This document shows, one piece after another, positions 32,709 to 49,110 of a DNA stretch of 64,000 bases (position 1 is the stretch's first letter; each line of letters begins with the position of its first letter). The translations under genes and the position numbers were made by a program. The notes below the pieces were generated by a model, which worked only from the letters and a program-made list of their open reading frames with translations, had not been told where the DNA came from and did no database searches. This DNA comes from an uncultured Methanomassiliicoccales archaeon (GTDB lineage Archaea; Thermoplasmatota; Thermoplasmata; RBG-16-68-12; EA-27). Where the stretch lies: contig CAYNEM010000013.1 of the NCBI GenBank assembly GCA_964396265.1, positions 1,681 through 65,680 on the forward strand. The letters run 5' to 3'.

Positions 32709-33227
32709 ATGGAGAAACACGCCGCTGCCGACGAGGACGAGCTGTTCCGTCAGCTGGCGTTCGGCGAGCCGCCGCGGCTCGAGGGCGGCCGCTCGTATCT
32801 CGTAAAGGAGCGGAAGCCCGGGAGGGCGTGGGAACTGTTCGACCGGATGCTCAACGAGGGGTACGAGGGCCTGTACGTGACGCGTCAGCATCCGAACCAT
32901 GTGGAGAACGCGCACGGGCCGAGGACGTTGAAGGTCGTGTGGCTGTCGACGACGCTCGGGCGGGACTACGTGGACCCTCACAACCTGAGCGCGCTCACGA
33001 ACCTGATCAACGGGTTCATCGAGTCCTCGAGACGCGCGATCATCCTGATCGACGGGCTCGAATACATGAGGCTCAACAACGATGCCGACCGGGTCCTCAA
33101 GTTCCTCGAGTACCTCGACGAGATCGTGATGCACCGACAGGGCATCCTGATCCTGTCCCTCGACGCGCGCGCGTTCGATGCGAGGGAGCTGGCCTTCATT
33201 GAGCGGAACAGCGTCGTGCTCGAGTGA
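32709..33227 (+). CDS. DUF835 protein (P-loop-less KaiC-related module)
   Basis: 'GRSYLVKERKPGRAWELF...GLYVTRQHP...VVWLST...ALTNLINGFIE...IILIDGLEYM...VLKFLEYLDE' follows the DUF835 consensus. Confidence 0.85.
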   Translation: MEKHAAADEDELFRQLAFGEPPRLEGGRSYLVKERKPGRAWELFDRMLNEGYEGLYVTRQHPNHVENAHGPRTLKVVWLSTTLGRDYVDPHNLSALTNLINGFIESSRRAIILIDGLEYMRLNNDADRVLKFLEYLDEIVMHRQGILILSLDARAFDARELAFIERNSVVLE

Positions 33228-33604: not shown

Positions 33605-34306
33605 TCACGAGATGAGGTCCGTCACGCGGAATCCGTGGTCGAACACGAGGGCGTGGTACCCGGTGTCGTGACGCGCGCCCCTCATCTTCACCACGCGGAT
33701 CCTGCGCTGCACCTCGAAGTCCCCGCGCTGTTCGAGGCTGAGGTGGAGGATGCCGTCCGCGAGGTAGTCCTCCCGGTGCTTCCCGAACGCCTGCGGGGCG
33801 TGGCCCTTCGCGTTCGAAGGGAGTTCGCCGATGACGAACGAGGTGCAGGCGAGCCCTCGCAGCCACTTGAACAACTCCAGCACGTCCTTCCGGTAGTTCT
33901 GGAACCTTGCGAGGACCTCGAGCGCGTCGAGCGAGTCCAGCACGAGCGTCTCGTAAGGGAAGCCCACGCGCACGCTCTGCGTGTACATCTTGAACAGGTC
34001 CACCCACGAACCCTCGTCCGCCAATTTCTTGCGGAGGGCGGCGAGGTCCAGGATGCTCAGCGCATTCCCCAGCATCGCGGGGTCGAACCCCAGGCTCTCC
34101 GCATGGTCCGCAAGGCTCGCGCGGCTCTGCTCCAGGCTCACGTATAGGCCCTTCGTCCCGCGGATGGCGTTCTCGTACAGGACGGAATACGCGAGGGACG
34201 TCTTCATCGTCCCCGGCGCGCCCGCGAGCAGGACGACGTGGCCCGCGGGGATGCCTCCGCCCAGGATGCGATCGAGTTCCTCCGTGTGCGTCTTCAGTTT
34301 CTTCAT
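33605..34306 (-). CDS. KaiC-like ATPase, single module (last gene of the operon)
   Basis: 233 aa from ATG 34306 with GGAGG upstream. 'LDRILGGGIPAGHVVLLAGAPGTMKTSLA', 'LVLDSLDAL' and 'RRIRVVKMRGARHD'. The rest of track ORF 33605..36148 is out-of-frame shadow. Confidence 0.9.
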   Translation of the reverse strand: MKKLKTHTEELDRILGGGIPAGHVVLLAGAPGTMKTSLAYSVLYENAIRGTKGLYVSLEQSRASLADHAESLGFDPAMLGNALSILDLAALRKKLADEGSWVDLFKMYTQSVRVGFPYETLVLDSLDALEVLARFQNYRKDVLELFKWLRGLACTSFVIGELPSNAKGHAPQAFGKHREDYLADGILHLSLEQRGDFEVQRRIRVVKMRGARHDTGYHALVFDHGFRVTDLIS

Positions 34307-36030
34307 CTCCCTTCCTCCGCCAATCCGGCCAGCTGGGCCCGCAATCTCTTCGCCCGATCGACGAAGTCTTGACCGGCGGCGACGACGTCCAACGCGCCGC
34401 CAAAGTCCGCCATCACTTCGTCCGCGAGACGAGCCACCTTCGCCAGGTCCTCCGCGCCGATTGCGGAGGTCTCCTTCCGAAGCTTTCGAAGGACCCGCCG
34501 GAACGCGGGATCCCCCGCCGGCCCCAGGCTTGCGACGAAAGCCTCGCGGATCGTCTCCCCCAGGGGAGGACGTTGTTCCGCCTCCGGTACCCAGGCCTCG
34601 AGTCCCAAGATCGACGAAGCCTTCACGACGCCGAGGCCCCCGAGCGTCGCCGCATCCGAGGAAAGGGTGCGGGCCATCACCTGGGTGGGCGGGGTTCGCC
34701 AGAGTCGTTCGAGATCCGCCCCCAGGTCCTCGTTCACCCGCGTCCAACCGGGTTCTGCAGCGCCGTCGGACGGCGCCTGAAGCTCCTGGAGCATGTCGCG
34801 AAGGTACTCCAGCACGTGGGGCACATCCGAGACAGCGAGATCCTGCGGGCGTTTTCCCCAGGTAAGCGCAGCCCGCCACAGGAGGTCCGACGATCCCAAT
34901 CGGGAACGCAGGGCCCCGGCCAACGCCACGTGGAGCTCGGGCGGGGAGAGCCACGCCCCGCGCAAGGCCCGGAACGACTCCCGTTCCTCCGAGGACAGCT
35001 TGGCGAGCGAGACGACCAGGCTCGCGCCCTCGCGCATGCCGAGGATGACGGAATGGATCGCGGCGACCGTGGCCGGGCCGCTGTGGGTGAACGCGTACGA
35101 GGCATCGTCGATCAGGATGGCGCCCTCGGGATGACGGGAGAGGAACTCCGACGCCGTCGCCGCCAACACGCACGCGCACTGCTCCCCTGGCGGGAGAATC
35201 ACGGACTCCACGCCCATGAGCTCCGGGCGCGGACTGCCCGGACCTGCAATCGCCAATGCGGGTCGGGTTCCTGCGGCTGCGAGGAACGTCGCCTCCGCGT
35301 ACGTCGGTCTCATCTCGTCGAGGATGTAGACGCCGGGCGACACCTCCCATGGGATCGGCGAGGACGCTGACGGACGGCCACGAAACGCGAGGGGATTGGC
35401 CCCCCGGAGCGCCTGCGCGTAGAGCACCGCCGCCACCGGCACCGCGAGGTTCGTCCCCACGAACTCTGCGTGACCGAGGATCGTGAGCTCGAAACCGTAC
35501 ACGGGCCCGCCCACCACGAGCGCCACGGTCCCCATGACGACGAGCCACGCCTCCCTGCGCCGGTGCGGCGATTGGCTCCGCGCCGCCAAGGACTCTCCGA
35601 GGGCGATGGCGAGGCACGCGACGGGATAGGCGTTCAGACTGTAGAGACCCGCCTCCGTGCCGAGCTGGAACGCGTGGGAACTCCGCCAGCCGGCCGCGAT
35701 GCCTGCGACGGCCAATCCACCGCCAAAGAGGGCGATCCCCGCACTCGCCACCACACGAAGACGAGACCTCCCGCCAGGAAAGTACGTCATCGCGAATGCG
35801 GCGATGGCGGCGTGGGCGAGGAGGAAGGAGGAGAGCCACAGGGCTTCCCATGGTGCGTCCGGAGAGAGAGCCAGGCGCCCGAAGACGGCGGCGTTGGCGG
35901 TGCTGAACAACGCGAGGGACGCGAGCAGAAGAGCGAGCGGCGCTCGCCGACGGACGGAGATTGCGAGGAGCGCGGAGATCCACAGGGTGGCGGCGATCGC
36001 AGCAAGCACGATGAAGGGGGCGATCGTCAC
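34303..36030 (-). CDS. Polytopic membrane protein (about 6-7 TM) fused to a DUF835-like module and a helical C-terminal domain
   Basis: The N-terminal 250 aa are hydrophobic helices. 'GVYILDEMRPTYAEATFL...ILIDDASYAF...' resembles DUF835. GTGA/ATGA overlaps with both neighbours. Confidence 0.7.
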   Translation of the reverse strand: MTIAPFIVLAAIAATLWISALLAISVRRRAPLALLLASLALFSTANAAVFGRLALSPDAPWEALWLSSFLLAHAAIAAFAMTYFPGGRSRLRVVASAGIALFGGGLAVAGIAAGWRSSHAFQLGTEAGLYSLNAYPVACLAIALGESLAARSQSPHRRREAWLVVMGTVALVVGGPVYGFELTILGHAEFVGTNLAVPVAAVLYAQALRGANPLAFRGRPSASSPIPWEVSPGVYILDEMRPTYAEATFLAAAGTRPALAIAGPGSPRPELMGVESVILPPGEQCACVLAATASEFLSRHPEGAILIDDASYAFTHSGPATVAAIHSVILGMREGASLVVSLAKLSSEERESFRALRGAWLSPPELHVALAGALRSRLGSSDLLWRAALTWGKRPQDLAVSDVPHVLEYLRDMLQELQAPSDGAAEPGWTRVNEDLGADLERLWRTPPTQVMARTLSSDAATLGGLGVVKASSILGLEAWVPEAEQRPPLGETIREAFVASLGPAGDPAFRRVLRKLRKETSAIGAEDLAKVARLADEVMADFGGALDVVAAGQDFVDRAKRLRAQLAGLAEEGR

Positions 36031-36554
36031 CGGTGCGCCTCCAGGTGGAAGGTGACGAGGAGGAGAATCTGCTGCGGATCGCGGGCCTTCCCGCGCGACC
36101 AGACGGTGCGGAAGTCCTCGAGGCCCTTGAAGCCGGCCGCGACGACATCGGTCTCCTCGAGGTCCTCGGCGAGGCAGCGTCGGACGTCCTCGATCTTCAT
36201 GCGGGCGACCTGGCGGTCCTCCTCAAGGACGACCTTCGCCACGGAACCCGGCGGTGGAATCGACGCGCCCAGGGAAACGATCGCGACGGTTTGGGTTCCA
36301 TCCAGACCGCGACCCACCGCCTCTCTCGGGAGCGAGAAGACCCAACGCGGGCGGAGGCCGAACGGCCTCCCCGTGGCGAGCCGCTGGAGGGCGAGAAGGA
36401 CGAGGAATGTCGCGAGCCCCCCCACGAAGAGGAGCGGGAGAAGCCCGAACTGATAGAAGGTGCCGTGAAACCAGAAGCCCGCGACGAGGGTGACCGAGAT
36501 GAGGAACAACAACGCGTAGCGCGTCGTCCTCTCGCGACCTCGGAGCGACATCAT
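36027..36554 (-). CDS. Small membrane protein (2 TM) with a soluble beta-rich C-terminal domain (possibly ASCH/PUA-like, tentative)
   Basis: ATGATG start at 36554. TM helices 'YALLFLISVTLVAGFWF' and 'LLPLLFVGGLATFLVLLAL'. The C-terminal 'VAIVSLG...KIEDVRRCLAEDLEETDVVAAGFKGLEDFRTVW...ILLLVTFHL' loosely resembles an ASCH fold. Confidence 0.55.
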   Translation of the reverse strand: MMSLRGRERTTRYALLFLISVTLVAGFWFHGTFYQFGLLPLLFVGGLATFLVLLALQRLATGRPFGLRPRWVFSLPREAVGRGLDGTQTVAIVSLGASIPPPGSVAKVVLEEDRQVARMKIEDVRRCLAEDLEETDVVAAGFKGLEDFRTVWSRGKARDPQQILLLVTFHLEAHR

Positions 36555-36562
36555 CGTTCCCC

Positions 36563-37294
36563 CTACGAGATCGCCTTCGCGACCTCGAAATAGCCGTTCT
36601 CGAAGACGAGCGTGAAGAAGTCGCTGCTGTGGTTCGCGGACCGCATCTTCGAACACTGGATCCGCCGCTGGAAGGACACGTCCGTCACGGCCTCCAGTCG
36701 AAGGCGGAAGATCGCGTCGGAGAGGAACTCCTCCTCGAGCCCTTCCTCTCCCTCTGCCTCCTCCGCAAGGACCAACGTCGTGCAACCGAGGGAGCGGAGC
36801 CACTCGAACAGGTCGAACGTCTCGCGTCGCGGGTCTTCGAACTCGAGGAGCACGGTCAAGGCGGTCCATGAATCGATGACGAGGAGTTCGAACCCGAACT
36901 CCCGGCGAAGCTGCGAGATCTTCGCCTTCAGGAGCGCAGTCATCGGCCGCTCCGCGGGTCCCAAAGTCCAATCCTTCAGCCTCTTGGCGAGCTTCTCGCG
37001 CACGTCACGGCTGCGACCGAGGTCCAGGACCGGGAGGGCGTCCGACACGCTGGCGGGCTTGAGCCCCAGGGTCGCCATCTGGGAGAGAAAAGCGGCGGCA
37101 TCCTGCTCGACGGTCACGTAGAGCCCCCGGGTGCCCTTCTCGGCATTGCGATACAGGATCGAGTAGGCGACGGAGGACTTCATCGTGCCCGAGGCCCCTC
37201 GGATCAGGACGACCTGACCCTTCGGGATGCCCTGGCCGAGTCCGCCGTCGAACCGTCGGATGTACGTGGGGACGAACGCGCGCAGAGTCCCACC
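36563..37294 (-). CDS. KaiC-like ATPase module with no canonical start codon, in frame directly after the TGA of the upstream KaiC-like gene
   Basis: Codons 37294-37184 read 'GGTLRAFVPTYIRRFDGGLGQGIPKGQVVLIRGASGT' and continue into 'MKSSVAYS...' at 37183. This encodes the LD..LG.GIP.G motif and the P-loop 'GASGTMKSS', with no ATG/GTG/TTG. 'RRIQCSKMRSANH' lies near the C-terminus. Confidence 0.7.
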   Translation of the reverse strand, partial: GGTLRAFVPTYIRRFDGGLGQGIPKGQVVLIRGASGTMKSSVAYSILYRNAEKGTRGLYVTVEQDAAAFLSQMATLGLKPASVSDALPVLDLGRSRDVREKLAKRLKDWTLGPAERPMTALLKAKISQLRREFGFELLVIDSWTALTVLLEFEDPRRETFDLFEWLRSLGCTTLVLAEEAEGEEGLEEEFLSDAIFRLRLEAVTDVSFQRRIQCSKMRSANHSSDFFTLVFENGYFEVAKAIS

Positions 37295-38407
37295 TCACGC
37301 GCCGATGGCGGGGGCAACCTCGAATTCCTTCCCCGGAGCCACGTGCAACGTCATGTAGCCCGTGTCGTGGGCCGTCCCGCGCATCTTCACGATCCGAATC
37401 CTGCGCTGGATCTGTACGTCGGTGACAGAATGGAGGCGAAGCTGGATCATCCCGTCCGCGAGGAAGTCCTCGTCGTGGCGGCCCTGGAACACGTTCCCGC
37501 GGATGACGAAGTCCGGCCGCTCCGCGATGACGAACGACGTGAGCCCCAGGTCGCGAAGCCACTCGAACAGGCGGAAGAGCTCCACGCGCCGGTTCTCGAA
37601 CTTCGCGAGGACCTCCAGCGCTTCCAGGGAGTCGATGACGAGCAGCTGAAGGTGGGCCCCCGCCAGCGCTTTCAACCGCCCCTTCAAATCGTTGAGCCAG
37701 TCCCGCTTTCTCCTCTTGACCGAGCGCCACAGGAGCGTCGCGTCAAGTATCTCCAGGCGACCTTCCACCCGAGAGAAGTCGAGGCCCAAGGTCTCAATCT
37801 GGCGAAACAGGCTGCCGGCGCGTTCCCCGAACGTGATATACAACCCGCCACGAAGGTCCGAGATGGCGTTGTTCGCCAGGATGAACAGTGCGAGGGACGT
37901 CTTCATCGTCCCCGGCGCGCCCGCGATCAGGACCACGGAACCCTGCGGGACGCCGCCGTGAAGCGCCCCGTCAAGCCCCGGGATGTGCGTCGCGATGCGG
38001 GAAAGAGGCGCTCCGGAGTTTCCGCGAGCTCGCAAGACTCCGGGGGCACCAGGCGCCCTCGCCCCTCCCTTCGATTGCGCTCCCGCAGCTCCGGATTCCG
38101 GCCCTCGTCCGGCCAACGCCTGCTCGCGTCGGTCCAACGCGATCTCCCTCACCATCAAGCGCCTCTCCCGTTCGTAGGCGCGGCGCTTTGAAGCTTCTTC
38201 CACCTCCTGGAGGCGGCGCAGCTGCAGGTCGAGAACGAGCCGGGTCGTCTTTCCTTTCCTGAAGCCCTCTGGTGCACGCCGGGACCTGTCCTTCGGGCCG
38301 ACCAGCTCGATCCCCGGACTCCGCAGGATGCAGCCGCACGCACGACATCGAAGCCTCTTGTGGGCGTTCGAGGTCGAACAGTTGGGACATCGCAGGGCCG
38401 TCGTCAT
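37295..38407 (-). CDS. Zinc-ribbon / coiled-coil / KaiC-like ATPase
   Basis: ATG at 38407, 2 nt after the upstream stop. 'CPNCSTSNAHKRLRCRACGC', a charged coiled coil, 'IPGLDGALHGGVPQGSVVLIAGAPGTMKTSLA', 'LVIDSLEAL' and 'RRIRIVKMRGTAHD'. The upstream part of track ORF ..38818 overlaps the neighbouring gene out of frame. Confidence 0.85.
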   Translation of the reverse strand: MTTALRCPNCSTSNAHKRLRCRACGCILRSPGIELVGPKDRSRRAPEGFRKGKTTRLVLDLQLRRLQEVEEASKRRAYERERRLMVREIALDRREQALAGRGPESGAAGAQSKGGARAPGAPGVLRARGNSGAPLSRIATHIPGLDGALHGGVPQGSVVLIAGAPGTMKTSLALFILANNAISDLRGGLYITFGERAGSLFRQIETLGLDFSRVEGRLEILDATLLWRSVKRRKRDWLNDLKGRLKALAGAHLQLLVIDSLEALEVLAKFENRRVELFRLFEWLRDLGLTSFVIAERPDFVIRGNVFQGRHDEDFLADGMIQLRLHSVTDVQIQRRIRIVKMRGTAHDTGYMTLHVAPGKEFEVAPAIGA

Positions 38408-38409
38408 GT

Positions 38410-39132
38410 CTACACGCTCAAGGCCGGGGCGACGCTGAACTTCCCATGTTCCAACACGAGGGCCACGTAGTGCGTCTCGTGCGCACTCTCGCGCATCTTC
38501 ACGACGCGGAGGCGCCGCTGGATCGTGACATCGCTCACCTGATGCATCTTCAGATGGATGATCCCGTCGGCGAGGTAGGCCGCGTCGTTCCTGTGATCCG
38601 CCTCGCCCGGCATGAGGAGGCTCTCGGGGGGTGCCTCCGTGAGCACGAAGCTCGTCGCCCCCAGGCCCCGCAGCCATTCGAAGAGCTCGAACAGCTCTGC
38701 GCGCGGTTCCTTGAAGCCGCCGAGAACCTCCAGGGCCTCGAGGGAATCGAGCGCCAACAGCGAGAACGGCTGGATCTCCCTTCGAGTCTCGACCGCGCGC
38801 GGGAGGAACTCCCGCCACACCGGGGGGCGACCCCTTCCCAATTCCTTCCTGAGGGTCGCCAGGTCGGCGACGCTGACGCGGGCCCCTTCGGCGCCCCCGC
38901 CGAACCCCATCCCTTCCATCTGACCTTCCAAGCTCGCCCTCGTCTGTTCGAGGCTCACGTATACGCTGGCCTTCCCTTCATGGACGGCGTTTTGGTGGAG
39001 GATGGAGTACGTAAGGGACGACTTCATCGTGCCCGGAAGCCCGGAGACGAGGACCACATGCCCTGCGGGGATCCCTCCTCGCATGATCTCGTCGAGCCCT
39101 TCCACATAGGTCCGGAACCGTTGGCGCGTCAT
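38410..39132 (-). CDS. KaiC-like ATPase, single module
   Basis: ATG at 39132. 'VEGLDEIMRGGIPAGHVVLVSGLPGTMKSSLT', 'LALDSLEAL' and 'RRLRVVKMRESAHE'. Confidence 0.9.
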   Translation of the reverse strand: MTRQRFRTYVEGLDEIMRGGIPAGHVVLVSGLPGTMKSSLTYSILHQNAVHEGKASVYVSLEQTRASLEGQMEGMGFGGGAEGARVSVADLATLRKELGRGRPPVWREFLPRAVETRREIQPFSLLALDSLEALEVLGGFKEPRAELFELFEWLRGLGATSFVLTEAPPESLLMPGEADHRNDAAYLADGIIHLKMHQVSDVTIQRRLRVVKMRESAHETHYVALVLEHGKFSVAPALSV

Positions 39133-39136
39133 GGGC

Positions 39137-39541
39137 TCAGATCCCAGACACGATGACTTCGACTTCCCGGGCCGCACGTTCGATGCTGATGAGCACGAGG
39201 CCCATGTTGGCATCGGGGCGCACAATCGTGACGAGGAGCGCCCGCTCCCCCGCTCCCGTGCTGATGACCTTGCCTTCCTCCGCCTCGACGATCGACTGCA
39301 GGAACTTCCCCTGGTTCAGTTCCCTTGCCGCGAGTTCGCTTGTCCCCACGAGTGCGGCGCACATCGCCGCCACCTTCTTGGGATCCGAGCCTTTCGGAAG
39401 GATGTGGGAGATGATGAGGCCGTCCCGACGGGCCACGGCGACGGCGATAACGTCGGCGAGCCTGCGGAGACTTTCCATCGCGGTCGCCAGGTCGCCCTCG
39501 ATGCCTGACACCGACCCGCCGGTGCTATATCCGGAGATCAT
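39137..39541 (-). CDS. Roadblock/LC7 (MglB-like) protein
   Basis: 'ESLRRLADVIAVAVARRDGLIISHILP...KKVAAMCAALVGTSELAAREL...QSIVEAEEGKVISTGAGERALLVTIV' is the canonical Robl_LC7 pattern. ATGA overlap with the GTPase gene. Confidence 0.9.
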   Translation of the reverse strand: MISGYSTGGSVSGIEGDLATAMESLRRLADVIAVAVARRDGLIISHILPKGSDPKKVAAMCAALVGTSELAARELNQGKFLQSIVEAEEGKVISTGAGERALLVTIVRPDANMGLVLISIERAAREVEVIVSGI

Positions 39542-40698
39542 CGAGCACCCACCAGCTGCTCGGCGAGGAGGGTCAGACCCTCCAGCAGGCCCTTGCCCTC
39601 GGTTGCCACGGTGGCGACCACGGGGACCGTGGAAGCTAGGGAAAGGGACTGACGGATCTTCTCAGGTTCCATCGCGCCGCCCAAGTCCATCTTGTTCGCG
39701 AGGACGACCAAAGGCACGTCGGATCCCACGATTCCCAGGATCTGCTTCGCGCGCGGGAGGTCCTCCTCGCGCGTGCTGTCCACAACCAGGAGAACCCCGT
39801 TCACCTGACGAGCAAAGATCTGGAAGATGAACTCGAACCGTTCCTGGCCCGGCGTCCCGAAGAGCTCCGCCTCGAGCCCGGACACCTGGACGTTTCCATA
39901 GTCGAATGCCACCGTGGTCCCGAGCCGATCGACGCTCATCGCGTTCTGACACAGCTTCTGCACGACGGTGGACTTGCCCGCGTCCGGAGGGCCCGTGACC
40001 AGGATGCGCGGAAAGTACACGCTCAGACCGACGAGCTCCCGGAACGTGAGCGGAATCCAGTTCGTCGCGCGCGTCCCCGGCCGTTGGTCCCGGATCCGCA
40101 TGTAGTGTTCGAGGATCCCCGTCCTCATCTTGGATTGGAACTCCACCGTGTAGTCGTTGGTGTCGTTCATCCTCTGGACTTCCTTCTGGCCATACAGCCA
40201 GTTCAGGAACATGTAGCAGACGACGGACCCCGTCGACTTCGTGACCTCGGACAGTCGCCGCCATCGTTCGAAGAGACCTTCCGTCGAGACGCGATCGGCC
40301 AAGAACTCCATCGAATCGATCACGATCCTCTGAGGTTTCTCGTCCCGGACGGCCTGTTCGATCGTGTCCATGATCCCGTCGAACGTGTCGATGCTGTGCA
40401 CGATGTATCGCTCCGTGGACGGAATGAGGAGCTGGGAGCTCGTCCCGTCCACGAACACGAGGCGATCCTCCGGGAAGGGACCGAACTTGCGGAGGTCCCT
40501 TCGGGCGAGGGCCGGCGCCCGGTAGAAATCGACGTAGAGGCAACGCTCCCCTTCCTTGAGTCCCGTGGTCACGAACTGTTCGGCAAAGAGGCGGCGCTCG
40601 GTGGGATGGTCGCTGAAGAACAAGATCGTCGAGGGCTTCTCGAAGCCTCCCCCCAGCCACGAGTCGAGGATTTGAAGTCCCGTGTGCGCCCGGTCCGT
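39538..40698 (-). CDS. Degenerate (P-loop-less) KaiC-like module fused to an MglA-like/COG2229-type small GTPase; its conserved N-terminus follows an in-frame TGA
   Basis: Codons 40698-40624 read 'TDRAHTGLQILDSWLGGGFEKPSTI' with no ATG/GTG/TTG, and the track start is TTG at 40623. The P-loop position reads 'FFSDHPTERR'. 'IVIDSMEFL' is present. GTPase motifs: G1 'TGPPDAGKST', G3 'LFGTPGQERF' (MglA-type), G4 'LANKMDL'. Confidence 0.8.
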   Translation of the reverse strand, partial: TDRAHTGLQILDSWLGGGFEKPSTILFFSDHPTERRLFAEQFVTTGLKEGERCLYVDFYRAPALARRDLRKFGPFPEDRLVFVDGTSSQLLIPSTERYIVHSIDTFDGIMDTIEQAVRDEKPQRIVIDSMEFLADRVSTEGLFERWRRLSEVTKSTGSVVCYMFLNWLYGQKEVQRMNDTNDYTVEFQSKMRTGILEHYMRIRDQRPGTRATNWIPLTFRELVGLSVYFPRILVTGPPDAGKSTVVQKLCQNAMSVDRLGTTVAFDYGNVQVSGLEAELFGTPGQERFEFIFQIFARQVNGVLLVVDSTREEDLPRAKQILGIVGSDVPLVVLANKMDLGGAMEPEKIRQSLSLASTVPVVATVATEGKGLLEGLTLLAEQLVGAR

Positions 40699-41367
40699 TC
40701 ACGCCACCCCCAGGACCTGGAACGTCTGCCACTTCGGCGTTGCCGCCATGCCGCGCAGATGATGGGTCCGGACCTCGCGGTCCATGGACTCCGTGAACCG
40801 CATCTCCAGGACGCCGTCCACGAGGGAGCGCAGGAGGTTCAGAGTCTGCGGGTCGTGGACGCCCTCCTGGACGGCGTAGGCGATGGACCCCAGTTCAGTC
40901 TTGACGCGATTCGTCACCATCTGCAGGAATTTCGCGATGGCCTGCGGGGAGTTGTGCAGGAAGAGAGTGGTGATGCTGTAGAAGAGAATGCGGACCGGCA
41001 GACCCATGGAAACCGAGGCGCGCGAAATCGCCATGCCCAGCGCTTCGAGGTTGGAGTAGCTGCTAACCGTCCAGAGCTTCGGGTTGTTCGCGTCATCGGA
41101 CGTTGATTGAGCGCTCGAGGAGTAGCAGTCGATAAAGGCGAAGTTCGTCCCCTCGGATCTGCCGAGGTCAAGACCCATCGCTTCCGCTCGTCTTCGAATC
41201 TCGCGGGGGTGGACGTCCAGGGTCACAAAGACGACGCGCTCGTTCCCGCGAAGATAGGCCCGCGCGGAGGCCAGCAACCACTCGAACTTGCCGATCCCCG
41301 GAGGACCGACCAGCAAGATGGAATAGTGTCTCGGTAGAGATTCGGCAACGGCTTCCGTGTCCATCAT
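40699..41367 (-). CDS. KaiC-like ATPase module (P-loop GPPGIGKF)
   Basis: 'YSILLVGPPGIGKFEWLLASARAYL...VVFVTLD...' and 'REVRTHHLRGMAATP' (KaiC-family C-terminal R..K/R.RG motif variant). Ends with TGA at 40701-40699. Confidence 0.8.
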   Translation of the reverse strand: MMDTEAVAESLPRHYSILLVGPPGIGKFEWLLASARAYLRGNERVVFVTLDVHPREIRRRAEAMGLDLGRSEGTNFAFIDCYSSSAQSTSDDANNPKLWTVSSYSNLEALGMAISRASVSMGLPVRILFYSITTLFLHNSPQAIAKFLQMVTNRVKTELGSIAYAVQEGVHDPQTLNLLRSLVDGVLEMRFTESMDREVRTHHLRGMAATPKWQTFQVLGVA

Positions 41368-41393
41368 CGACCCCCCCGAAACGTCTCATCGCG

Positions 41394-41972
41394 CTAACGG
41401 TCCGATGGCGAAGTCCCCCTGCGCTTGAGTCCCGCGCGCGCAATCCTGTCGGCAAGGGTTAGGAAGGCGAGGTCGACGTTCTGACCCGTCCTCGCGCTTG
41501 TGAGCCAGCTCGGGGCGGAGAAGTCCTCCGCGACCTCGTTGATTACCGCCATTGCATCCGGCTCGGCGGAGAGGTCGCTCTTCGCCCCCAGCACGACGAT
41601 CGGGACATGCCCGGAGACGTGGCACGCCGCGTCGATCCAGTCCGCCGTCGCCCCGATCGTCCGGGACCGCGTCAGGTCGCCGACCGCAAGGACTCCCTGG
41701 AGCGCTGAGAAATACACGTCCTTGAGCAGATCTCGGAACGAGGGTTCCCCCATGATGTCCCAGATGGTCAAAACCGCATGGACCGGGTGGTCGTCGACGA
41801 AGAGATCGAACTCCTTCTTCGACACCTTCGCTCCCAAGGTTGCGTGGTAGTGGTCGTCCCACTGGTCGTACACGAACCGGCGGACGAGGCTCGACTTGCC
41901 CACCCCCGGTTCGCCAACCAGGCACACTTTGGCTCTCATCACCTCAAGACGTTCGGTACCTGGAACTGCCAT
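41394..41972 (-). CDS. Rab/Ras-like small GTPase
   Basis: G1 'KVCLVGEPGVGKSSLVRRFV', switch I 'YHATLG', G3 'LTIWDIMGEPSF', G4 variant 'VVLGAKSDL', G5 'TSARTG'. Starts 6 nt after the giant-protein stop. Confidence 0.85.
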   Translation of the reverse strand: MAVPGTERLEVMRAKVCLVGEPGVGKSSLVRRFVYDQWDDHYHATLGAKVSKKEFDLFVDDHPVHAVLTIWDIMGEPSFRDLLKDVYFSALQGVLAVGDLTRSRTIGATADWIDAACHVSGHVPIVVLGAKSDLSAEPDAMAVINEVAEDFSAPSWLTSARTGQNVDLAFLTLADRIARAGLKRRGTSPSDR

Positions 41973-41978
41973 CCGTTT

Positions 41979-44900
41979 TCACCTCTCCTGTGTCGCGGCC
42001 TCTACCGCCGGCGCCCGCCGCCCGAGGGGGAGTTTGCCCTCGATCCGCGCGGCGGCCGGCTTCATGTTTCCTCGCCTCGCGATGCGCTTGCGCGTGAGGA
42101 CCACGGACAAAACGAGAACGCCCGCGACAAGGATGCTCGGGAACTCCGGGATCTGCAGGTGACCCCACGTCCCTGGGTTGTTCTGGTTGACGTTGTCGGA
42201 ACCCCAAGTGTAGGTCGTGAAGGTGGTGTCGTCAAACCCGAGGACCGCGAAACCGGCGACCTGGTTCGCGCTCGTCGAGTTCGTGCCCCAGACATCCCAG
42301 AAGGAGATGCTGAACTCGTACACCTGCCGGGAGTTGTTGAACGCCCCCACCGCTGACGGCGAGGAGCACGAGCCGCTACAGGACACCCAGCCCGCCCCAT
42401 TCCCTTTTTCTGAGGTCAGAGAGCCGCCGCTCGTCACCCGGAACCGCCGATCGTCGCTCTGGGGCACAGATCCTCCGTCGTGGTTCCTGTCGAACACCAA
42501 TCGGCCCGAATCGACGGCGCCGTCATCGGTCGTGTCCGCGGTCACCTCGAGGCACACGTAGACGCGCGAGCTCGCCGACCGGCGGCCGACGAGGAACTTC
42601 AGGTTCGCGTTGCTCAGCTCGTCCGCGCCATGGTACTCGCTTGAGCTCGTGCCGCAGTTTCCATCCACGGTCGGGATGTTCGTGAGCGGCTTCGCGAGGG
42701 CCGTCAGGGCGTTCGTCCCGTGCAAGGGTATCAAGCCCGGACTCGCGCGGGTCCCATCCTGTTCCTCCGGCTCTGTCGCGTCCGCGGCCCCGGACCAGTC
42801 CGCCGTGATGACGATCACCCACTTTCCCTCGACCGCTGCGTCAGGGATGAGGGCGCCCGCCTCAAGCTCCTCGGCACCCAGACCCGTCGCTACCGGAGCT
42901 TCCCATTCCCACTCCGTCCCCGACCAGCGATAGGCGCTCGCGTTGTCGACCTGGCCCCCCCGGCCCTGAACATCGACGAAGCGGTCGAAGGAACGCCCGC
43001 CGAGCGTGATGCCGCCCCCCACCTCATCTGTACCGAGGTAGAAACGCACGTAGTCGCGCCCGACACGCGGTGGCGGAGGCGGCGGAGCGGCAGAAGCGCC
43101 GGGTGCACCCTCCCCGTCCGGCTCAGGCCTCAACAGGCGATCCGGCACGAGGCTGCCCTCCAATGCAGGTCCGAGGAGCCTCACGTACAGGAAGACCTGG
43201 TCCCCTGCGGCGAACGCGTCCCGGCTCACGATATTCATGGAGGATCTGCTGACACCGCGAAGATCTGTCTCGTCCGATTCTGGATTGGGCCAGTCCGCGA
43301 AGAGACCGTCAATACGCTTCAAGTTCTCGGGTGGGGGCTGTCCCACGTAGGCCCGGGCCTCGAATCCGACGACGGCGAACGGTCGATCCGCCACGACGGA
43401 AACGACTCCTGCGGACACGAGCGACCCTTGAGGAAGCGCCATGGGGTCCGCCGTAACCACGCGGGTCACCGGGGTCCCTTCGACGACCTCGAGGTCCTCT
43501 GGAATCGCCGCGAACGCCGCACCGGCACTCGTACGAAGCTCGACGCGTTGCACGTGAACCCGAGCCCCTGCTCCGATCGCCTCGAACCGGAGCGCGAGAA
43601 ACGGCTGGTGCCCGCTCTGCAGTGTCGTGACAAGGACCTGTTGCGTCACACGAAGCGCGCCGAGGGCAAGGCCGATGGGAACGACGGTGTGGCTCGTCTC
43701 TCCCGCGTTGTCATCCGAGGCGAACCTCGCGCGCAGGGAGGTCGGAGCGAGCTCCGCGAGGAGGTACGTCGGCACCTCAACCTCGAGCTCCCGACCGTTC
43801 GCCGCCGCTGACAAATCGACATCGCGCTTCCAGCCATTCCAGTCCGCACGATTGTCCCCCTCGAACCGCATTATGACCGCCTGCTCCACGACGCCGCCCG
43901 ATCCGGAAACTCGTGCCAAGTAGTCCGCGCCGAGCTCCCCCAGGTCGTATCCCGTGGTCAGATTGCCATCGACGTCGAGGAATCCATGGACCGTATCGTA
44001 GTCCAATGGGTCTGCGAGTGCGGATCCCGCGACTTCGACTCGGAAGAAGAGGGAGGCATCCGCAAGCTTGAGCGACACGGACTGAATGCGCACGTTCGGA
44101 CTCGTCGTGAAAGTTCCTTCCGCATAAGCGGGGACAGCCTTCCAGTCATCGAAGGAGCCGTCGATGGAAATCTCGCGTACTTGCGGCGGGGGAGAGAGGA
44201 GTTGAACCATGGTGGCCGTGGCCATCAGGAGGGCGGCCGCGATCACTATGTGCCGCGGGAGGAACCGTCCGCGTGGTGGAGCAACCGGTGGGGGAGGAAT
44301 TGCGTTCGGGATTCCAATCCCGTTGACGAGCCCGTTTACACGTCCATTGCCCTTGGCCGGTCCGCGTCCATTGACCAGCCCGTTGACGCGGCCAGTCCCG
44401 TTCGCGACTCCGCGTCCATTGACCAGCCCGTTGACGCGGCCAGTCCCGTTCGCGACTCCGCGTCCATTGACCAGCCCGTTGACGCGGCCAGTCCCGCTCG
44501 CGACTCCGCGTCCATTGACCAGCCCGTTGACGCGGCCTGTCCCGTTCACGTGGCTGTCGTTGTTCCTTTTCAAGTCGGTCGGCCGATGCCCGGGCGACCA
44601 AAGCCGAGACCAGCCCGGCGATTCGCTGATCAAACCACGACGTTGCGAGGCCGTGGGATCCGACTGTGCCCTATGTCCCTCCCTGAGGAGTTGCGCCGAC
44701 GCCGGGCCGAACCCAGAAAACGCCGGAAGCGCAGGCAGGCCGTCCGACGCGTTGCCCCGTGGGGAGACCTCCTCATACGTGTACCAAGAGGAGCAAGCTG
44801 GAGCCGGAGGATCCCCGTACCTAGAACTTGCGCGAGGCACGCCCGTGCAAACGAACCTGGTCGGATTCGTTGACCCACATCGAACGCAAGCGATTTCTGG

Positions 44901-45017
44901 ACCGGCCTGCCTGAGGAGATCCGCGACGGCGGTGGAGTTGCAACGAGGACAGACCGAGAGGGGTTGAAGGCTTCCGGAGCATTGCGGGCACCGGTGAAAG
45001 CGATCGAGCCGAAGCAT
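41979..45017 (-). CDS. Giant surface protein: cytoplasmic double zinc ribbon, 16-aa tandem repeats, TM, ectodomain of about 700 aa, PEF-CTERM-like anchor
   Basis: 'CPQCSGSLQPLSVCPRC' and 'CVRCGSTNPTRFVC'. Five repeats of 'GTGRVNGLVNGRGVAN'. TM 'HIVIAAALLMATATMVQLL'. The C-terminus 'LQIPEFPSILVAGVLVLSVVLTRKRIARR' is a PEF motif plus TM plus basic cluster, followed by about 30 more residues. Confidence 0.8.
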   Translation of the reverse strand: MLRLDRFHRCPQCSGSLQPLSVCPRCNSTAVADLLRQAGPEIACVRCGSTNPTRFVCTGVPRASSRYGDPPAPACSSWYTYEEVSPRGNASDGLPALPAFSGFGPASAQLLREGHRAQSDPTASQRRGLISESPGWSRLWSPGHRPTDLKRNNDSHVNGTGRVNGLVNGRGVASGTGRVNGLVNGRGVANGTGRVNGLVNGRGVANGTGRVNGLVNGRGPAKGNGRVNGLVNGIGIPNAIPPPPVAPPRGRFLPRHIVIAAALLMATATMVQLLSPPPQVREISIDGSFDDWKAVPAYAEGTFTTSPNVRIQSVSLKLADASLFFRVEVAGSALADPLDYDTVHGFLDVDGNLTTGYDLGELGADYLARVSGSGGVVEQAVIMRFEGDNRADWNGWKRDVDLSAAANGRELEVEVPTYLLAELAPTSLRARFASDDNAGETSHTVVPIGLALGALRVTQQVLVTTLQSGHQPFLALRFEAIGAGARVHVQRVELRTSAGAAFAAIPEDLEVVEGTPVTRVVTADPMALPQGSLVSAGVVSVVADRPFAVVGFEARAYVGQPPPENLKRIDGLFADWPNPESDETDLRGVSRSSMNIVSRDAFAAGDQVFLYVRLLGPALEGSLVPDRLLRPEPDGEGAPGASAAPPPPPPRVGRDYVRFYLGTDEVGGGITLGGRSFDRFVDVQGRGGQVDNASAYRWSGTEWEWEAPVATGLGAEELEAGALIPDAAVEGKWVIVITADWSGAADATEPEEQDGTRASPGLIPLHGTNALTALAKPLTNIPTVDGNCGTSSSEYHGADELSNANLKFLVGRRSASSRVYVCLEVTADTTDDGAVDSGRLVFDRNHDGGSVPQSDDRRFRVTSGGSLTSEKGNGAGWVSCSGSCSSPSAVGAFNNSRQVYEFSISFWDVWGTNSTSANQVAGFAVLGFDDTTFTTYTWGSDNVNQNNPGTWGHLQIPEFPSILVAGVLVLSVVLTRKRIARRGNMKPAAARIEGKLPLGRRAPAVEAATQER
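44317..44550. repeat. 48-bp in-frame tandem repeat (about 5 copies, 3 nearly identical)
   Basis: The unit CGTCCATTGACCAGCCCGTTGACGCGGCCAGTCCCGTTCGCGACTCCG starts at 44365, 44413, 44461 and 44509, with a degenerate copy upstream. It encodes the GRVNGLVNGRG repeats of the giant protein. Confidence 0.9.
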
Positions 45018-45392
45018 CTAGGCCTCCGAGCGGTTCGCATTCCCACACGGTCGGCGAGTGAGCCCGACGGACTCAGAATCCGCGTCGGCAAGACGGATCG
45101 AGTCTCGGGCGGTGTCAGAGGGTCCCGGAAGGGAAAAAGGCAGGCCCGGACGGTCAGGACGAACCGGACACGCGGGGTAAACGCTTCCGGTCGAAAAGAT
45201 GGTTTCGTTCGACATTTGGCCTGCCTTGCGGAATCTTGCCGCTTTCGGGCGACGTTTGATAGCAAGTAATGACGCTTTCCATCCGAGTATCAAAAATAAG
45301 AACGGAAAGCAGCGCGTACAAAGAGATGGATTTCACGAGACATTATTATATACATCATCATATTTATTAGCCCCTCCGTCAATTACCGTAGT

Positions 45393-46139: not shown

Positions 46140-46188
46140 GGCGATCCCAGACGGATGCCTTTCCCCTGGAGCCTATAAGTCAATTATC

Positions 46189-46222: not shown

Positions 46223-46245
46223 GCGCGGATTCATCGAAGTTGCCG

Positions 46246-49051: not shown

Positions 49052-49110
49052 GGAATGAACCCCATCCCGGGGTACAAAAACGACTTCTAGGGTGGCATCT
49101 GTCCCGCCGT

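What the first reader, a model, noticed from the sequence alone, without database searches (positions are those of the whole stretch)
33605..45017. 11.4-kb co-directional operon linking a giant PEF-CTERM surface protein to two small GTPases, a Roadblock/MglB protein and eight KaiC/DUF835-type modules
Seen in the sequence: twelve minus-strand reading frames run from 45017 to 33605. Junctions are 4-nt overlaps (ATGA/GTGA at 39538-41, 36027-30 and 34303-06), gaps of 2 to 26 nt, or a single in-frame TGA. The order is: giant surface protein; Rab/Ras-like GTPase; KaiC-like; (TGA) degenerate KaiC fused to an MglA-like GTPase; Roadblock/LC7; KaiC-like; zinc-ribbon-coiled-coil-KaiC; (TGA) KaiC-like; 2-TM protein; polytopic-membrane DUF835-like protein; KaiC-like. 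Established knowledge: MglA-type GTPases pair with Roadblock/MglB GAPs. Roadblock plus COG2229 GTPase pairs occur in actinobacterial conservons. KaiC-like ATPases and DUF835 have been proposed as archaeal signal-transduction hubs (Makarova and colleagues, 2017, from memory). Inference: this looks like one membrane-to-cytoplasm signalling or positioning machine, in which surface and membrane sensors feed a GTPase/GAP switch and a heteromeric KaiC-type ATPase assembly. I do not know of a described system with this full composition.
Basis: partly seen in the sequence, partly recalled or inferred. Interest (0 to 1): 0.85.

Follow-up and report, generated by a model that had tools for sequence, protein, structure and literature searches.

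The report
Archaeal KaiC–GTPase–Roadblock signalling operon
An uncultured soil archaeon (Thermoplasmata) carries a conserved 11-gene operon that wires a small GTPase switch and its Roadblock partner to a cluster of KaiC-like ATPases and membrane receptors; this is a real, uncharacterised variant of known signalling parts rather than a wholly new kind of system.

Summary
Eleven (not twelve) co-directional minus-strand genes run from 45017 to 33605, with junctions of -4 to +26 nt.

Profile searches confirm a Rab-like GTPase, a Roadblock protein and six KaiC-family modules. They also confirm a fusion of an inactivated KaiC domain to a GTPase with the GTPGQ motif (MglA/CvnD type). The "DUF835-like" call for the 7TM protein is only weakly supported. 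The PEF-CTERM call is below threshold.

Synteny is strong. g3-g11 is conserved in many Thermoplasmata MAGs. g1-g11 is conserved in five closer relatives with different flanks. The minimal core is the iKaiC-GTPase fusion, an iKaiC and Roadblock, usually with a KaiC-like gene nearby. It recurs in DPANN archaea and Hydrothermarchaeota.

The giant surface protein (CBM9-like ectodomain) and the Rab-like GTPase are lineage-specific add-ons.

The two "in-frame TGA" junctions are ordinary stops. Each is followed by a downstream gene with a near-cognate start (ACG, CTG) that is conserved in relatives. They are not fusions.

Best reading: a conservon-like or MglA/MglB-like GTPase switch docked onto a heteromeric KaiC-type hub and fed by membrane sensors. 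The output is unknown.

Verdict: new variant of a known kind, moderate interest.

The parts
45127..45303 (-). Conserved ~180-nt 5' leader upstream of g1, downstream of a TATA-like AT-rich box at 45340-45370. It ends in an invariant 9-bp closing stem (GGCAGGCC/GGCCUGCC) followed by a U-run.
   Evidence: Mean column identity is 88% across 6 relatives, higher than the adjacent coding DNA. RNAalifold gives -44.3 kcal/mol, with 5 of 45 pairs compensatory. No Rfam match.
41979..45017 (-). g1, 1012 aa. Cytoplasmic N-terminus with zinc ribbons and 16-aa NG-rich repeats, then a TM helix, an all-beta ectodomain of about 700 aa with CBM9-like domains, and a C-terminal IPEF+TM+basic anchor with a 30-aa tail.
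   Evidence: Weak TackOD1/zinc-ribbon hit. 48-bp tandem repeat at 44361-44547. AF2 mean pLDDT 83; Foldseek CBM9 1i82 E=2e-7, TMt 0.70. 401 database hits (E<=0.001); a 30-sequence alignment of them shows a near-invariant PEF. TIGR03024 PEF-CTERM scores 15.9 bits against a cut-off of 23.
41394..41972 (-). g2, 192 aa. Rab-like small GTPase with G3 'DIMGE' (no catalytic Gln) and G4 'AKSD'.
   Evidence: Pfam Ras 3.9e-25. Best PDB matches are Ypt6 and Thorarchaeota Rab 7ezb. Motifs were read from the translation.
40699..41367 (-). g3, 222 aa. Inactivated KaiC-like module (DUF7504). Walker A is 'GPPGIGKF' (no Ser/Thr) and the Walker B Asp is replaced.
   Evidence: Pfam DUF7504 3.5e-16 and KaiC 1.4e-13. 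Motif alignment.
39538..40698 (-). g4, 386 aa. N-terminal KaiC-like domain without a P-loop, fused to a C-terminal MglA/CvnD-type GTPase (G1 GPPDAGKS, G2 GTTVAFDYG, G3 GTPGQ, G4 NKMD). The start codon is ACG at 40696-40698, directly after the g3 stop.
   Evidence: Pfam KaiC 3e-15 and Arf 6e-18. All 120 listed hits carry both domains, and most are about 385-395 aa. 77 representatives at E<=1e-30. ACG is conserved in L081, L082/83 and L084; ATG in L127 and P0003.
39137..39541 (-). g5, 134 aa. Roadblock/LC7 (MglB/CvnB-like) protein.
   Evidence: Pfam Robl_LC7 8.5e-14. PDB matches: archaeal Roadblock proteins 7f8m 1e-14, CvnB5 3leq 2e-7, MglB 2e-3.
38410..39132 (-). g6, 240 aa. KaiC-like ATPase with a variant P-loop, GLPGTMKSS.
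   Evidence: Pfam KaiC 2.6e-30. The GTMK motif is conserved in all Thermoplasmata relatives.
37295..38407 (-). g7, 370 aa. Zinc ribbon, coiled coil, then KaiC-like ATPase (GAPGTMKTS).
   Evidence: Pfam KaiC 5.6e-39 at residues 139-360. CxxC...CxxC read from the translation.
36563..37285 (-). g8, about 240 aa. KaiC-like ATPase (GASGTMKSS). The start codon is CTG at 37283-37285, preceded by an SD-like GAGGTG.
   Evidence: Pfam KaiC 1.1e-32. The first canonical start lies inside Walker A. L081, L083 and L084 have GTG at the same position; L127 has CTG.
36027..36554 (-). g9, 175 aa. Two TM helices plus a C-terminal cytoplasmic domain with weak ASCH-like similarity.
   Evidence: No Pfam or NCBIfam hit for the window protein. 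ASCH matches 3 of 8 family members, best E=0.0027. The gene is conserved after g8 in relatives.
34303..36030 (-). g10, 575 aa. Seven predicted TM helices, then an alpha/beta domain resembling DUF835/inactivated KaiC (residues ~230-350), then a helical C-terminal domain.
   Evidence: 7TMR-DISM_7TM E=0.09. Homolog P0126 carries PF16927. hhalign against the flanking DUF835 protein gives E=1.5e-4, probability 51%. AF2 pLDDT is 63-92 for residues 230-350. Foldseek gives local KaiC hits with probability 0.91-0.97 but E~1.
33605..34306 (-). g11, 233 aa. KaiC-like ATPase (GAPGTMKTS; 'SLEQS' aligns with the KaiC catalytic 'EE').
   Evidence: Pfam KaiC 1.8e-36. PDB KaiC 2e-28, with alignment shown.
45657..46139 (-). 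Flanking stand-alone DUF835 gene (g0). It is separated from g1 by a plus-strand RHH gene and the leader, so it is probably a separate transcription unit.
   Evidence: Pfam DUF835 2.8e-24. The same DUF835-leader-g1 arrangement occurs in L101. RHH gene at 45393-45599.
32709..33227 (+). Flanking stand-alone DUF835 gene, convergent with g11.
   Evidence: Pfam DUF835 5.7e-31. L083 has a DUF835 gene in the equivalent position.

Best explanation
The block is one operon encoding a membrane-associated signalling module. Its heart is a small-GTPase switch physically tied to a KaiC-type ATPase hub.

**Shown**
- The genes are co-directional and tightly coupled.
- g3-g11 are inherited as a unit in a Thermoplasmata clade.
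- A minimal core of the iKaiC-GTPase fusion, an iKaiC and Roadblock, usually with a KaiC-like gene nearby, recurs in distant archaeal phyla.

**Inferred mechanism**
1. The four KaiC-like paralogs (g6, g7, g8, g11) keep the Walker A Lys and Ser/Thr and the Walker B Asp. g6, g8 and g11 also keep one catalytic Glu at the KaiC EE position ('EQ'); g7 reads 'GE' there. All carry a conserved Gly-to-Met P-loop change. They form RecA-like oligomers.
2. The inactivated KaiC-like modules act as adaptor subunits that dock onto or into that assembly. These are g3, the N-domain of g4 and the DUF835-like domain of the 7TM protein g10.
3. In this way the 7TM receptor g10, the 2TM protein g9 and (in this lineage) the CBM9-like surface protein g1 bring input to the hub.
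4. The tethered MglA/CvnD-type GTPase of g4 is the switchable element, and the Roadblock protein g5 acts on it as GAP or scaffold, as MglB and CvnB do.
5. The Rab-like g2 is a second, lineage-specific GTPase that lacks its own catalytic Gln.

The output is not encoded in the block. By analogy with MglA/MglB it may be localisation or activity of a surface machine. In the Hydrothermarchaeota variant a PilB/ArlI-type ATPase gene and a MinD-like gene lie next door.
For: - **Gene structure:**. No internal T-runs or AT-rich boxes.
- **Domain calls:**
- **GTPase signature:** G2 TT and G3 GTPGQ match MglA groups 2-5. The GTPase is 34-43% identical to actinobacterial homologs that have a Roadblock gene upstream.
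- **Synteny:** g3-g11 is conserved in L001, L002, L003, L006, L011 and L015. The whole g1-g11 block is conserved in L081, L082/L083, L084 and L127 with unrelated flanks.
- **Core in other phyla:** the core recurs in Micrarchaeota, Aenigmatarchaeota, Undinarchaeota and Hydrothermarchaeota. L019 swaps the membrane sensors for a GAF-PAS-V4R protein while keeping DUF835, KaiC, iKaiC, the fusion, Roadblock and a GTPase. This fits a modular input-hub-switch design.
- **Selection on the KaiC modules:** the GxxGTMK[ST] P-loop is conserved in all four paralogs across relatives of 50-90% identity, so these are selected functional proteins.
- **Size of the fusion family:** the fusion architecture defines about 65 or more clusters at 50% identity.
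Against: - No experiment bears on any step.
- No transcript data exist, so a single transcript is inferred only from spacing and the lack of terminator or promoter-like sequence.
- Heteromeric KaiC rings, adaptor docking and GAP activity are untested. I could not run multimer predictions.
- The Met in the P-loop could abolish nucleotide binding, which would make all seven modules pseudo-ATPases.
- The DUF835 assignment of g10 is marginal.
- g1 and g2 are absent from the operon in most relatives, so the surface-sensor part of the model applies at best to one sub-lineage.
- No output component is identified.
Confidence: 0.55

Rival explanations
1. The block is a biogenesis, anchoring or positioning machine for the giant surface protein g1. 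The KaiC-like ATPases would supply energy and the GTPases would target the cargo, rather than forming a signalling pathway.
For: g1 is the first gene, is translationally coupled to g2 (6-nt gap) and has an S-layer-like all-beta ectodomain with a sorting-signal-like C-terminus. Both the long g1-family members looked up (P0139, P0155) are followed directly by a GTPase gene (YchF-like).
Against: g1 and g2 are missing from the operon in most relatives, which keep g3-g11 intact. The core also exists in DPANN and Hydrothermarchaeota without any g1-like gene. No translocase, sortase or glycosylation gene lies in the block.
Confidence: 0.12
2. The block is a KaiC-based timing or oscillator system, an archaeal clock-like device built from multiple KaiC paralogs, with the GTPase as its output.
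For: Six modules match the KaiC family. The best solved relatives of g11 are cyanobacterial KaiC (2e-28). Myxococcus MglA/MglB forms part of a polarity oscillator (PMC6785124, abstract listed).
Against: All modules are single-domain, not the CI-CII double domain. The in-frame TGA junctions are true stops between separate genes. No KaiB- or KaiA-like gene is in the block. None has a canonical P-loop.
Confidence: 0.06
3. The block is an anti-virus defence or mobile-element cargo island. It lies near a STAND/TPR NTPase, a TnpB/Cas12f-like gene and toxin-antitoxin-like genes.
For: Neighbouring genes include an AAA_16/TPR STAND-like protein (45979-48936), an RHH gene and a Cas12f1-like TNB protein at 51157-52635.
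Against: PADLOC models give nothing beyond a trivial P-loop hit. In distant relatives the operon sits next to PheRS, a housekeeping gene, in conserved order. GC content is uniform with the surroundings. The flanks differ among relatives while the block stays intact.
Confidence: 0.03
4. g3+g4 and g7+g8 are each made as one fusion protein by stop-codon read-through, giving double-domain KaiC-like proteins. The near-cognate 'starts' would then be just sense codons.
For: g4 and g8 lack ATG/GTG/TTG before their conserved N-terminal motifs. For g3/g4 the stop is in frame and directly abuts the ACG/ATG codon in the window, L081, L082/83, L084, L127 and the P0003 contig.
Against: The stop is TGA in some relatives and TAG in others. 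L127 and P0003 have ATG at exactly the ACG position, and L081, L083 and L084 have GTG at exactly the CTG position. SD-like motifs precede both. At the g7/g8 junction the frame relation differs in L083. Distant relatives have gaps, other frames and normal ATG starts. In DPANN the g3-like gene follows g4 rather than preceding it.
Confidence: 0.1

Closest known systems
Actinobacterial conservon (CvnA-CvnB-CvnC-CvnD)
   Same: A Roadblock protein (g5; CvnB5 3leq E=2e-7) is paired with a GTPGQ-type GTPase (g4 C-domain, 34-43% identical to actinobacterial homologs). Both are encoded together with a membrane sensor and a nucleotide-dependent partner in one operon. The GTPase is thought to be the output (PMC4316618).
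   Different: There is no CvnA-type histidine kinase and no DUF742/CvnC. KaiC-like ATPases and pseudo-ATPases take their place. The GTPase is covalently fused to an inactivated KaiC domain. The system is archaeal.
MglA/MglB polarity switch (Myxococcus, Thermus)
   Same: A small Ras-superfamily GTPase of the MglA family is encoded with a Roadblock-fold regulator. g5 matches MglB weakly (PDB 3t1s 2e-3; NCBIfam MglB 4.5e-4).
   Different: g4 has the group 2-5 signature (TT, GTPGQ). It lacks the group 1 intrinsic Arg finger and TVPGQ motif. It is fused to another domain. No RomR/RomX or Frz-like partners are present.
Archaeal KaiC-like ATPases and inactivated KaiC domains (DUF835, MEDS), proposed as signal-transduction hubs (Makarova, Galperin and Koonin 2017, cited in PMC5847659)
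   Same: There are multiple single-domain KaiC-family proteins and inactivated derivatives. One is attached to a polytopic membrane domain, and stand-alone DUF835 genes flank the block. PMC5847659 lists DUF835 and MEDS as iKaiC.
   Different: I could not read the 2017 paper. I therefore cannot say whether a KaiC-GTPase fusion or a KaiC-Roadblock neighbourhood is described there. The Gly-to-Met P-loop and the direct fusion to an MglA-type GTPase are not mentioned in any paper I could search.
Eukaryotic Ragulator-Rag and Asgard Roadblock/GTPase proteins
   Same: A Roadblock-fold protein works with small GTPases at a membrane. The closest solved relatives of g5 are Roadblock/LC7-domain entries 7f8m, 9jue and 7yh1. 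PMC10933270 lists accession codes 7YH1-3 among its Asgard structures. g2 is close to Thorarchaeota Rab 7ezb.
   Different: No longin, TRAPP or Rag-type C-terminal Roadblock fusion is present. The operon organisation contrasts with Asgard genomes, where GTPase and Roadblock genes are generally not in operons (PMC10933270).

Membership tests
KaiC family (Pfam PF06745) | Profile match above the gathering score | tested here: met
   g3 51 bits, g4N 57, g6 106, g7 134, g8 114 and g11 126, against a cut-off of 26.6.
KaiC family (bona fide KaiC) | Canonical Walker A GxxxxGK[ST] | tested here: not met
   g6, g7, g8 and g11 have GxxGTMK[ST], with Met in place of the second Gly. g3 has GPPGIGKF. g4N has no P-loop.
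KaiC family (bona fide KaiC) | Tandem CI-CII double domain in one polypeptide | tested here: not met
   All modules are single-domain. The in-frame TGAs are real stops with separate downstream starts in relatives.
KaiC family (bona fide KaiC) | KaiB/KaiA partner genes; hexamerisation and autophosphorylation | not testable with these tools
   No KaiB- or KaiA-like Pfam hit in the block. The biochemistry cannot be tested here.
MglA family, groups 2-5 (Wuichet and Sogaard-Andersen 2015) | G3 motif GTPGQ, and Thr instead of the Arg finger next to the G2 Thr | tested here: met
   g4 has 'GTTVAFDYG' and 'FGTPGQERF'. These residues are invariant in 24 homologs. The definition comes from PMC4316618.
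MglA family, groups 2-5 | Genomic coupling to an MglB/Roadblock gene | tested here: met
   g5 overlaps the g4 stop by 4 nt. One or two Roadblock genes follow g4 in 23 of the 29 loci where g4 has 600 nt or more of downstream sequence.
MglA family, groups 2-5 | Single-domain small GTPase | tested here: not met
   The GTPase is the C-terminal domain of a 386-aa protein whose N-terminal domain is KaiC-like.
MglB / Roadblock-LC7 | Robl_LC7 profile match; MglB equivalog score | tested here: inconclusive
   Pfam Robl_LC7 gives 51.5 bits against a cut-off of 23, so that part is met. The NCBIfam MglB equivalog gives 20 bits against a cut-off of 200, so that part is not met. GAP activity is not testable.
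Conservon (CvnABCD) | All four components: HK-like CvnA, Roadblock CvnB, DUF742 CvnC, GTPase CvnD | tested here: not met
   CvnB-like and CvnD-like proteins are present. No HATPase or DUF742 hit occurs in any of the 11 products.
DUF835 (PF05763), for g10 | Profile match to DUF835 | tested here: inconclusive
   No Pfam hit even at E<=10. hhalign of the g10 family against the flanking DUF835 protein gives E=1.5e-4, probability 51%, over 117 columns. Local KaiC fold hits have probability 0.91-0.97 but E~1.
PEF-CTERM sorting signal (TIGR03024), for g1 | Profile match above cut-off; signal at the extreme C-terminus; cognate archaeosortase | tested here: inconclusive
   It is the best hit in all 4 C-termini tested and covers the full model in three of them. 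The scores are 12.6-17.4 bits against a cut-off of 23. PEF is near-invariant in the family. A 30-aa tail follows the basic cluster. No archaeosortase was found among the window proteins scanned.
Ras/Rab small GTPases, for g2 | Ras profile match; DxxGQ catalytic Gln; NKxD | tested here: inconclusive
   Pfam Ras gives 88.7 bits, so that part is met. G3 is DIMGE (no Gln) and G4 is AKSD (no Asn), so those parts are not met.

The most novel reading that the evidence does not exclude
The operon encodes a composite ATPase/GTPase signalling machine not yet described. In it, an MglA-type GTPase is covalently tethered through a pseudo-ATPase subunit to a heteromeric ring of KaiC-like proteins with a remodelled (Gly-to-Met) P-loop. 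Membrane receptors plug into the same ring through their own pseudo-KaiC domains. Subunit ratios are set by near-cognate ACG and CTG start codons, and expression is gated by a conserved structured leader RNA. This would be an archaeal counterpart of receptor-G-protein or Ragulator-Rag logic, built on a RecA-fold scaffold.
Probability: 0.25. Interest if true: 0.8.

Novelty: new variant of a known kind. Interest (0 to 1): 0.55.

Why it matters
KaiC-like ATPases have been proposed as the main archaea-specific signalling hubs, but very few partners are known. The function of archaeal MglA-type GTPases is also open: PMC4316618 found no conserved neighbours for the archaeal group. This operon, and above all the widespread iKaiC-GTPase fusion, gives a concrete and testable physical link between the two systems, with defined candidate inputs (7TM, 2TM and surface proteins). 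It offers a route to test the 'KaiC hub' idea biochemically. It also supplies natural cases of conserved ACG and CTG initiation codons in an archaeon.

Tried and rejected
1. **Selenocysteine, recoding or pseudogene at the in-frame TGAs.** Rejected. TGA is used as an ordinary stop elsewhere in the operon. Relatives have TAG at the same place, or ATG/GTG starts right after it.
2. **Defence system.** Rejected by PADLOC and by the housekeeping context in relatives.
3. **g1 as a core component.** Rejected by synteny and by the different context of the longer family members.
4. **Reading Makarova et al. 2017.** Three identifiers failed. Literature searches for KaiC together with Roadblock, GTPase or MglA found nothing relevant.
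5. **Function of g9.** The PDB profile search gave only noise. ASCH similarity is weak.
6. **Whole-model fold search of g10.** No significant hit, because the 7TM part is poorly modelled.
7. **The 17-mer scan of metagenomes for the leader.** It mostly returned chance matches. Only 4 of 120 loci were true homologs.
8. **Covariation support for the leader structure.** Too few divergent sequences are available.
9. **Rfam.** No hit for the leader or anything else in the block.

Full report
**1. Observation**

The window has about 67% G+C. Between 45017 and 33605 the minus strand carries eleven consecutive genes, here called g1 to g11.

- Junctions, in order, are +6, +26, 0, -4, +4, +2, +9, +8, -4 and -4 nt.
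- Nearly every start is preceded by GGAGG, GAGGTG or a G-run.
- On the sense strand the block has no run of five or more T and no AT-rich 10-mer. The only AT-rich, TATA-like stretch in 33-47 kb is at 45288-45370, upstream of g1.

I count seven KaiC/DUF835-type modules inside the span.

**2. Domain content**

| Gene | Result |
|---|---|
| g2 | Ras 3.9e-25 |
| g3 | DUF7504 3.5e-16, KaiC 1.4e-13 |
| g4 | KaiC 3e-15 (residues 5-208) plus Arf-like GTPase 6e-18 (residues 231-381) |
| g5 | Robl_LC7 8.5e-14 |
| g6, g7, g8, g11 | KaiC 2.6e-30, 5.6e-39, 1.1e-32, 1.8e-36 |
| g1, g9, g10 | no significant Pfam or NCBIfam family |

- **g4 GTPase.** It has G1 GPPDAGKS, G2 GTTVAFDYG, G3 GTPGQ and G4 NKMD. 'TT' plus 'GTPGQ' is the signature that Wuichet and Sogaard-Andersen give for MglA groups 2-5. 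That set includes conservon CvnD (group 2) and an archaeal group 4, for which they found no conserved neighbours (PMC4316618). Patterns from the g4 alignment recovered actinobacterial and Chloroflexi GTPases at 34-43% identity. In the actinobacterial loci a Roadblock gene lies about 1.3 kb upstream, which is the conservon layout.
- **g5 Roadblock.** Its closest solved relatives are Roadblock/LC7-domain entries 7f8m, 9jue and 7yh1, then CvnB5, then MglB.
- **g2.** It is Rab-like: Ypt6 and Thorarchaeota Rab are the best PDB matches. It has DIMGE and AKSD where Rabs have DTAGQ and NKxD.

**3. The KaiC modules**

- g6, g7, g8 and g11 share Walker A Gxx GTMK[ST]S and Walker B hhhhDS. At the site of KaiC's catalytic 'EE', g6, g8 and g11 read 'EQ' and g7 reads 'GE'.
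- The Met that replaces the second P-loop Gly is conserved in all four paralogs in every Thermoplasmata relative examined. One paralog has Phe in three loci. It is therefore a selected feature.
- g3 (GPPGIGKF, Walker B Asp lost) and the g4 N-domain (no P-loop) look inactive.

**4. The membrane proteins**

- **g10.** The AF2 model has seven N-terminal helices at low confidence, a better-modelled alpha/beta domain (residues ~230-350, pLDDT 63-92) and a helical C-terminal region.
  - The g10 family profile aligns to the flanking DUF835 protein with E=1.5e-4 but only 51% probability.
  - The best local fold matches are KaiC and RecA-like proteins, with probability 0.91-0.97 and E~1.
  - 'DUF835-like' is therefore plausible but not established.
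- **g9.** It has two TM helices and a C-terminal domain with weak ASCH similarity (3 of 8 family members, best E=0.0027).
- **g1.** It has N-terminal zinc ribbons and four 16-aa NG-rich repeats, encoded by a 48-bp tandem repeat. A TM helix and an ectodomain follow.
  - The ectodomain models well (mean pLDDT 83) and matches CBM9 modules (E=2e-7, TMt 0.70).
  - Its C-terminal IPEF-TM-basic motif is near-invariant in a 30-sequence alignment drawn from the 401 database hits.
  - That motif scores below the PEF-CTERM cut-off and is followed by a 30-residue tail.

**5. Conservation**

- **Order-level relatives.** In 13 of 15 Thermoplasmata loci (L001-L013), g4 is at 50-63% identity. In the longer of these loci the order is g3, g4, Roadblock (usually two copies), g6, g7, g8, g9, g10, g11.
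- **Start of the operon there.** In the seven of those loci whose upstream sequence I inspected (L001, L002, L006, L007, L008, L010, L012), the operon begins at g3, divergent from a PheRS alpha gene.
- **Closer relatives.** The full g1-g11 block occurs in L081, L082/L083, L084 and L127, and in part on the P0003 contig. Its flanks are unrelated to those of the window.
- **Other phyla.** The core of the fusion, a g3-like iKaiC and Roadblock(s), usually with a KaiC-like gene nearby, is also present in Micrarchaeota, Aenigmatarchaeota, Undinarchaeota and Hydrothermarchaeota.
- **Hydrothermarchaeota variant (L019).** The order is DUF835, KaiC, KaiC/DUF7504, the fusion, a GAF-PAS-V4R protein, Roadblock, V4R, a stand-alone GTPase. 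A T2SSE (PilB/ArlI-type) ATPase gene and a MinD-like gene follow on the other strand.
- **Size of the fusion family.** An exhaustive search finds 77 representatives at E<=1e-30, about 65 of them full length.
- **The g1 family elsewhere.** The longer g1-family members sit beside YchF and PolB genes. The window's g1 is therefore a shorter member of that family, found in this operon only in the closest relatives.

**6. The in-frame TGAs**

- **No canonical start.** g4 and g8 have no ATG, GTG or TTG before their conserved KaiC N-terminal motif.
- **g4.** Homologs P0002 and P0003 begin 'MGRARTG' where the window reads TGA-ACG-GAC. L127 has TGA-ATG. L081/L084 (after TAG) and L082/L083 (after TGA) have ACG, as the window does.
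- **g8.** L081, L083 and L084 have GTG where the window and L127 have CTG. The same GAGGTG motif lies upstream in all.
- **Distant relatives.** They use ATG, with gaps and other frames.
- **Conclusion.** The genes are separate, and in this lineage they appear to initiate at near-cognate codons directly after the upstream stop. Read-through is a minor alternative.

**7. Mechanism**

Gene structure, domain identities and conservation are shown. The rest is inferred.

- I read the block as a modular input-hub-switch system.
- The membrane proteins are the inputs, and g10 carries its own pseudo-KaiC domain.
- A mixed assembly of KaiC-like and pseudo-KaiC subunits is the hub.
- The tethered GTPGQ GTPase with its Roadblock partner is the switch.
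- The replacement of membrane sensors by a cytoplasmic GAF-PAS-V4R sensor in L019 fits this modularity.
- The output is unknown. The PilB-like and MinD-like neighbours in L019, and the role of MglA/MglB in bacteria, point to control of a surface machine or of polarity. That is only a lead.

**8. Comparison and novelty**

- The parts are known kinds: KaiC-like hubs, iKaiC domains, and Roadblock/GTPase pairs as in conservons and MglAB.
- What I did not find described is their combination: the iKaiC-GTPase fusion, the Met P-loop KaiC paralogs, and the conserved nine-gene (in some lineages eleven-gene) operon.
- The caveat is that the most relevant paper (Makarova et al. 2017) could not be read.
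- I rate it a new variant of a known kind, with interest about 0.55.

**9. Side observations**

- **Leader.** A ~180-nt leader upstream of g1 is more conserved (88% identity) than the coding DNA around it. It folds into a multi-branch structure closed by an invariant 9-bp stem followed by a U-run. It has no Rfam match. Covariation is too sparse to prove structure.
- **Neighbours.** DUF835 genes flank the block on both sides. A GvpD-like KaiC protein with two HTH genes lies 5 kb away.

Noticed in passing
window 40696-40698 (g4) and 37283-37285 (g8), minus strand: Two operon genes appear to start at near-cognate codons, ACG and CTG. Each is preceded by an SD-like motif and lies just after the upstream stop. 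ACG recurs in L081/L084 and L082/L083, and CTG recurs in L127. Other relatives have ATG or GTG at the same positions. This may set low subunit ratios or reflect termination-reinitiation.
   Followed up: yes
window 45127-45303 (minus strand), with a TATA-like box at 45340-45370: A conserved ~180-nt leader lies upstream of g1, with 88% column identity in 6 relatives, above that of the neighbouring coding DNA. The predicted multi-branch fold is closed by an invariant GGCAGGCC/GGCCUGCC stem and followed by a U-run. There is no Rfam hit. It could be an attenuator, a riboswitch-like element or an sRNA.
   Followed up: partly
window 39042, 37921, 37198, 34222 (first codon of the P-loops of g6, g7, g8, g11): All four KaiC-like paralogs carry GxxGTMK[ST], with Met in place of the conserved second Gly of Walker A. 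The change is strictly conserved across Thermoplasmata relatives (Phe in one paralog of L008-L010). The Hydrothermarchaeota homolog has a canonical GxxGxGK[ST]. The effect on nucleotide binding is unknown.
   Followed up: partly
window 44361-44547: A 48-bp tandem repeat (3.9 copies, 97% identical) encodes the 16-aa unit NGTGRVNGLVNGRGVA in the cytoplasmic juxtamembrane part of g1. NG-rich repeats of this type appear in the consensus of the 30 aligned family members.
   Followed up: partly
window 45657-46139 (-) and 32709-33227 (+): Stand-alone DUF835 (inactivated KaiC) genes flank the operon on both sides. L101 and L083 show the same flanking arrangement on one side each.
   Followed up: partly
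window 26958-28472 (+), 28539-28883 (+), 28966-29370 (+): A GvpD-like KaiC-family protein (GvpD_P-loop, KaiC, GvpD_bR2) is followed by two small HTH_20 regulators. This looks like another KaiC-type regulatory unit, 5 kb from the operon.
   Followed up: no
window 45393-45599 (+): A small ribbon-helix-helix (CopG-type) gene is divergent from g1 and shares the AT-rich promoter region. The spacing between the DUF835 gene and the leader is the same in L101.
   Followed up: no
window 45979-48936 (+): A large AAA_16/TPR STAND-like NTPase. Its longest ORF overlaps the 5' end of the DUF835 gene by about 160 nt, so the true start is probably further downstream.
   Followed up: no
window 51157-52635 (+), 52683-52754 (+), 48958-50913 (+): A TnpB/Cas12f1-like gene lies directly upstream of a tRNA gene. 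Just before it is a DUF5591+PUA protein with a sub-threshold TGT (queuine tRNA-ribosyltransferase) hit.
   Followed up: no
L019 1-10339 (Hydrothermarchaeota MAG): A variant of the system has a cytoplasmic GAF-PAS-V4R sensor and an extra V4R protein and GTPase. It lies next to a PilB/ArlI-type ATPase gene, a MinD-like gene and another KaiC-like gene on the opposite strand. This is a possible hint at the output.
   Followed up: partly
L205 7001-14603 and L206 7001-14536: Longer members of the g1 family (about 1300 aa, with N-terminal HhH and zinc-ribbon domains) sit in a conserved context. Each is followed by a YchF-like GTPase gene and a family B DNA polymerase gene.
   Followed up: partly
window 25058-26776 (-): A family X DNA polymerase with a PHP domain (PolX-type).
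   Followed up: no
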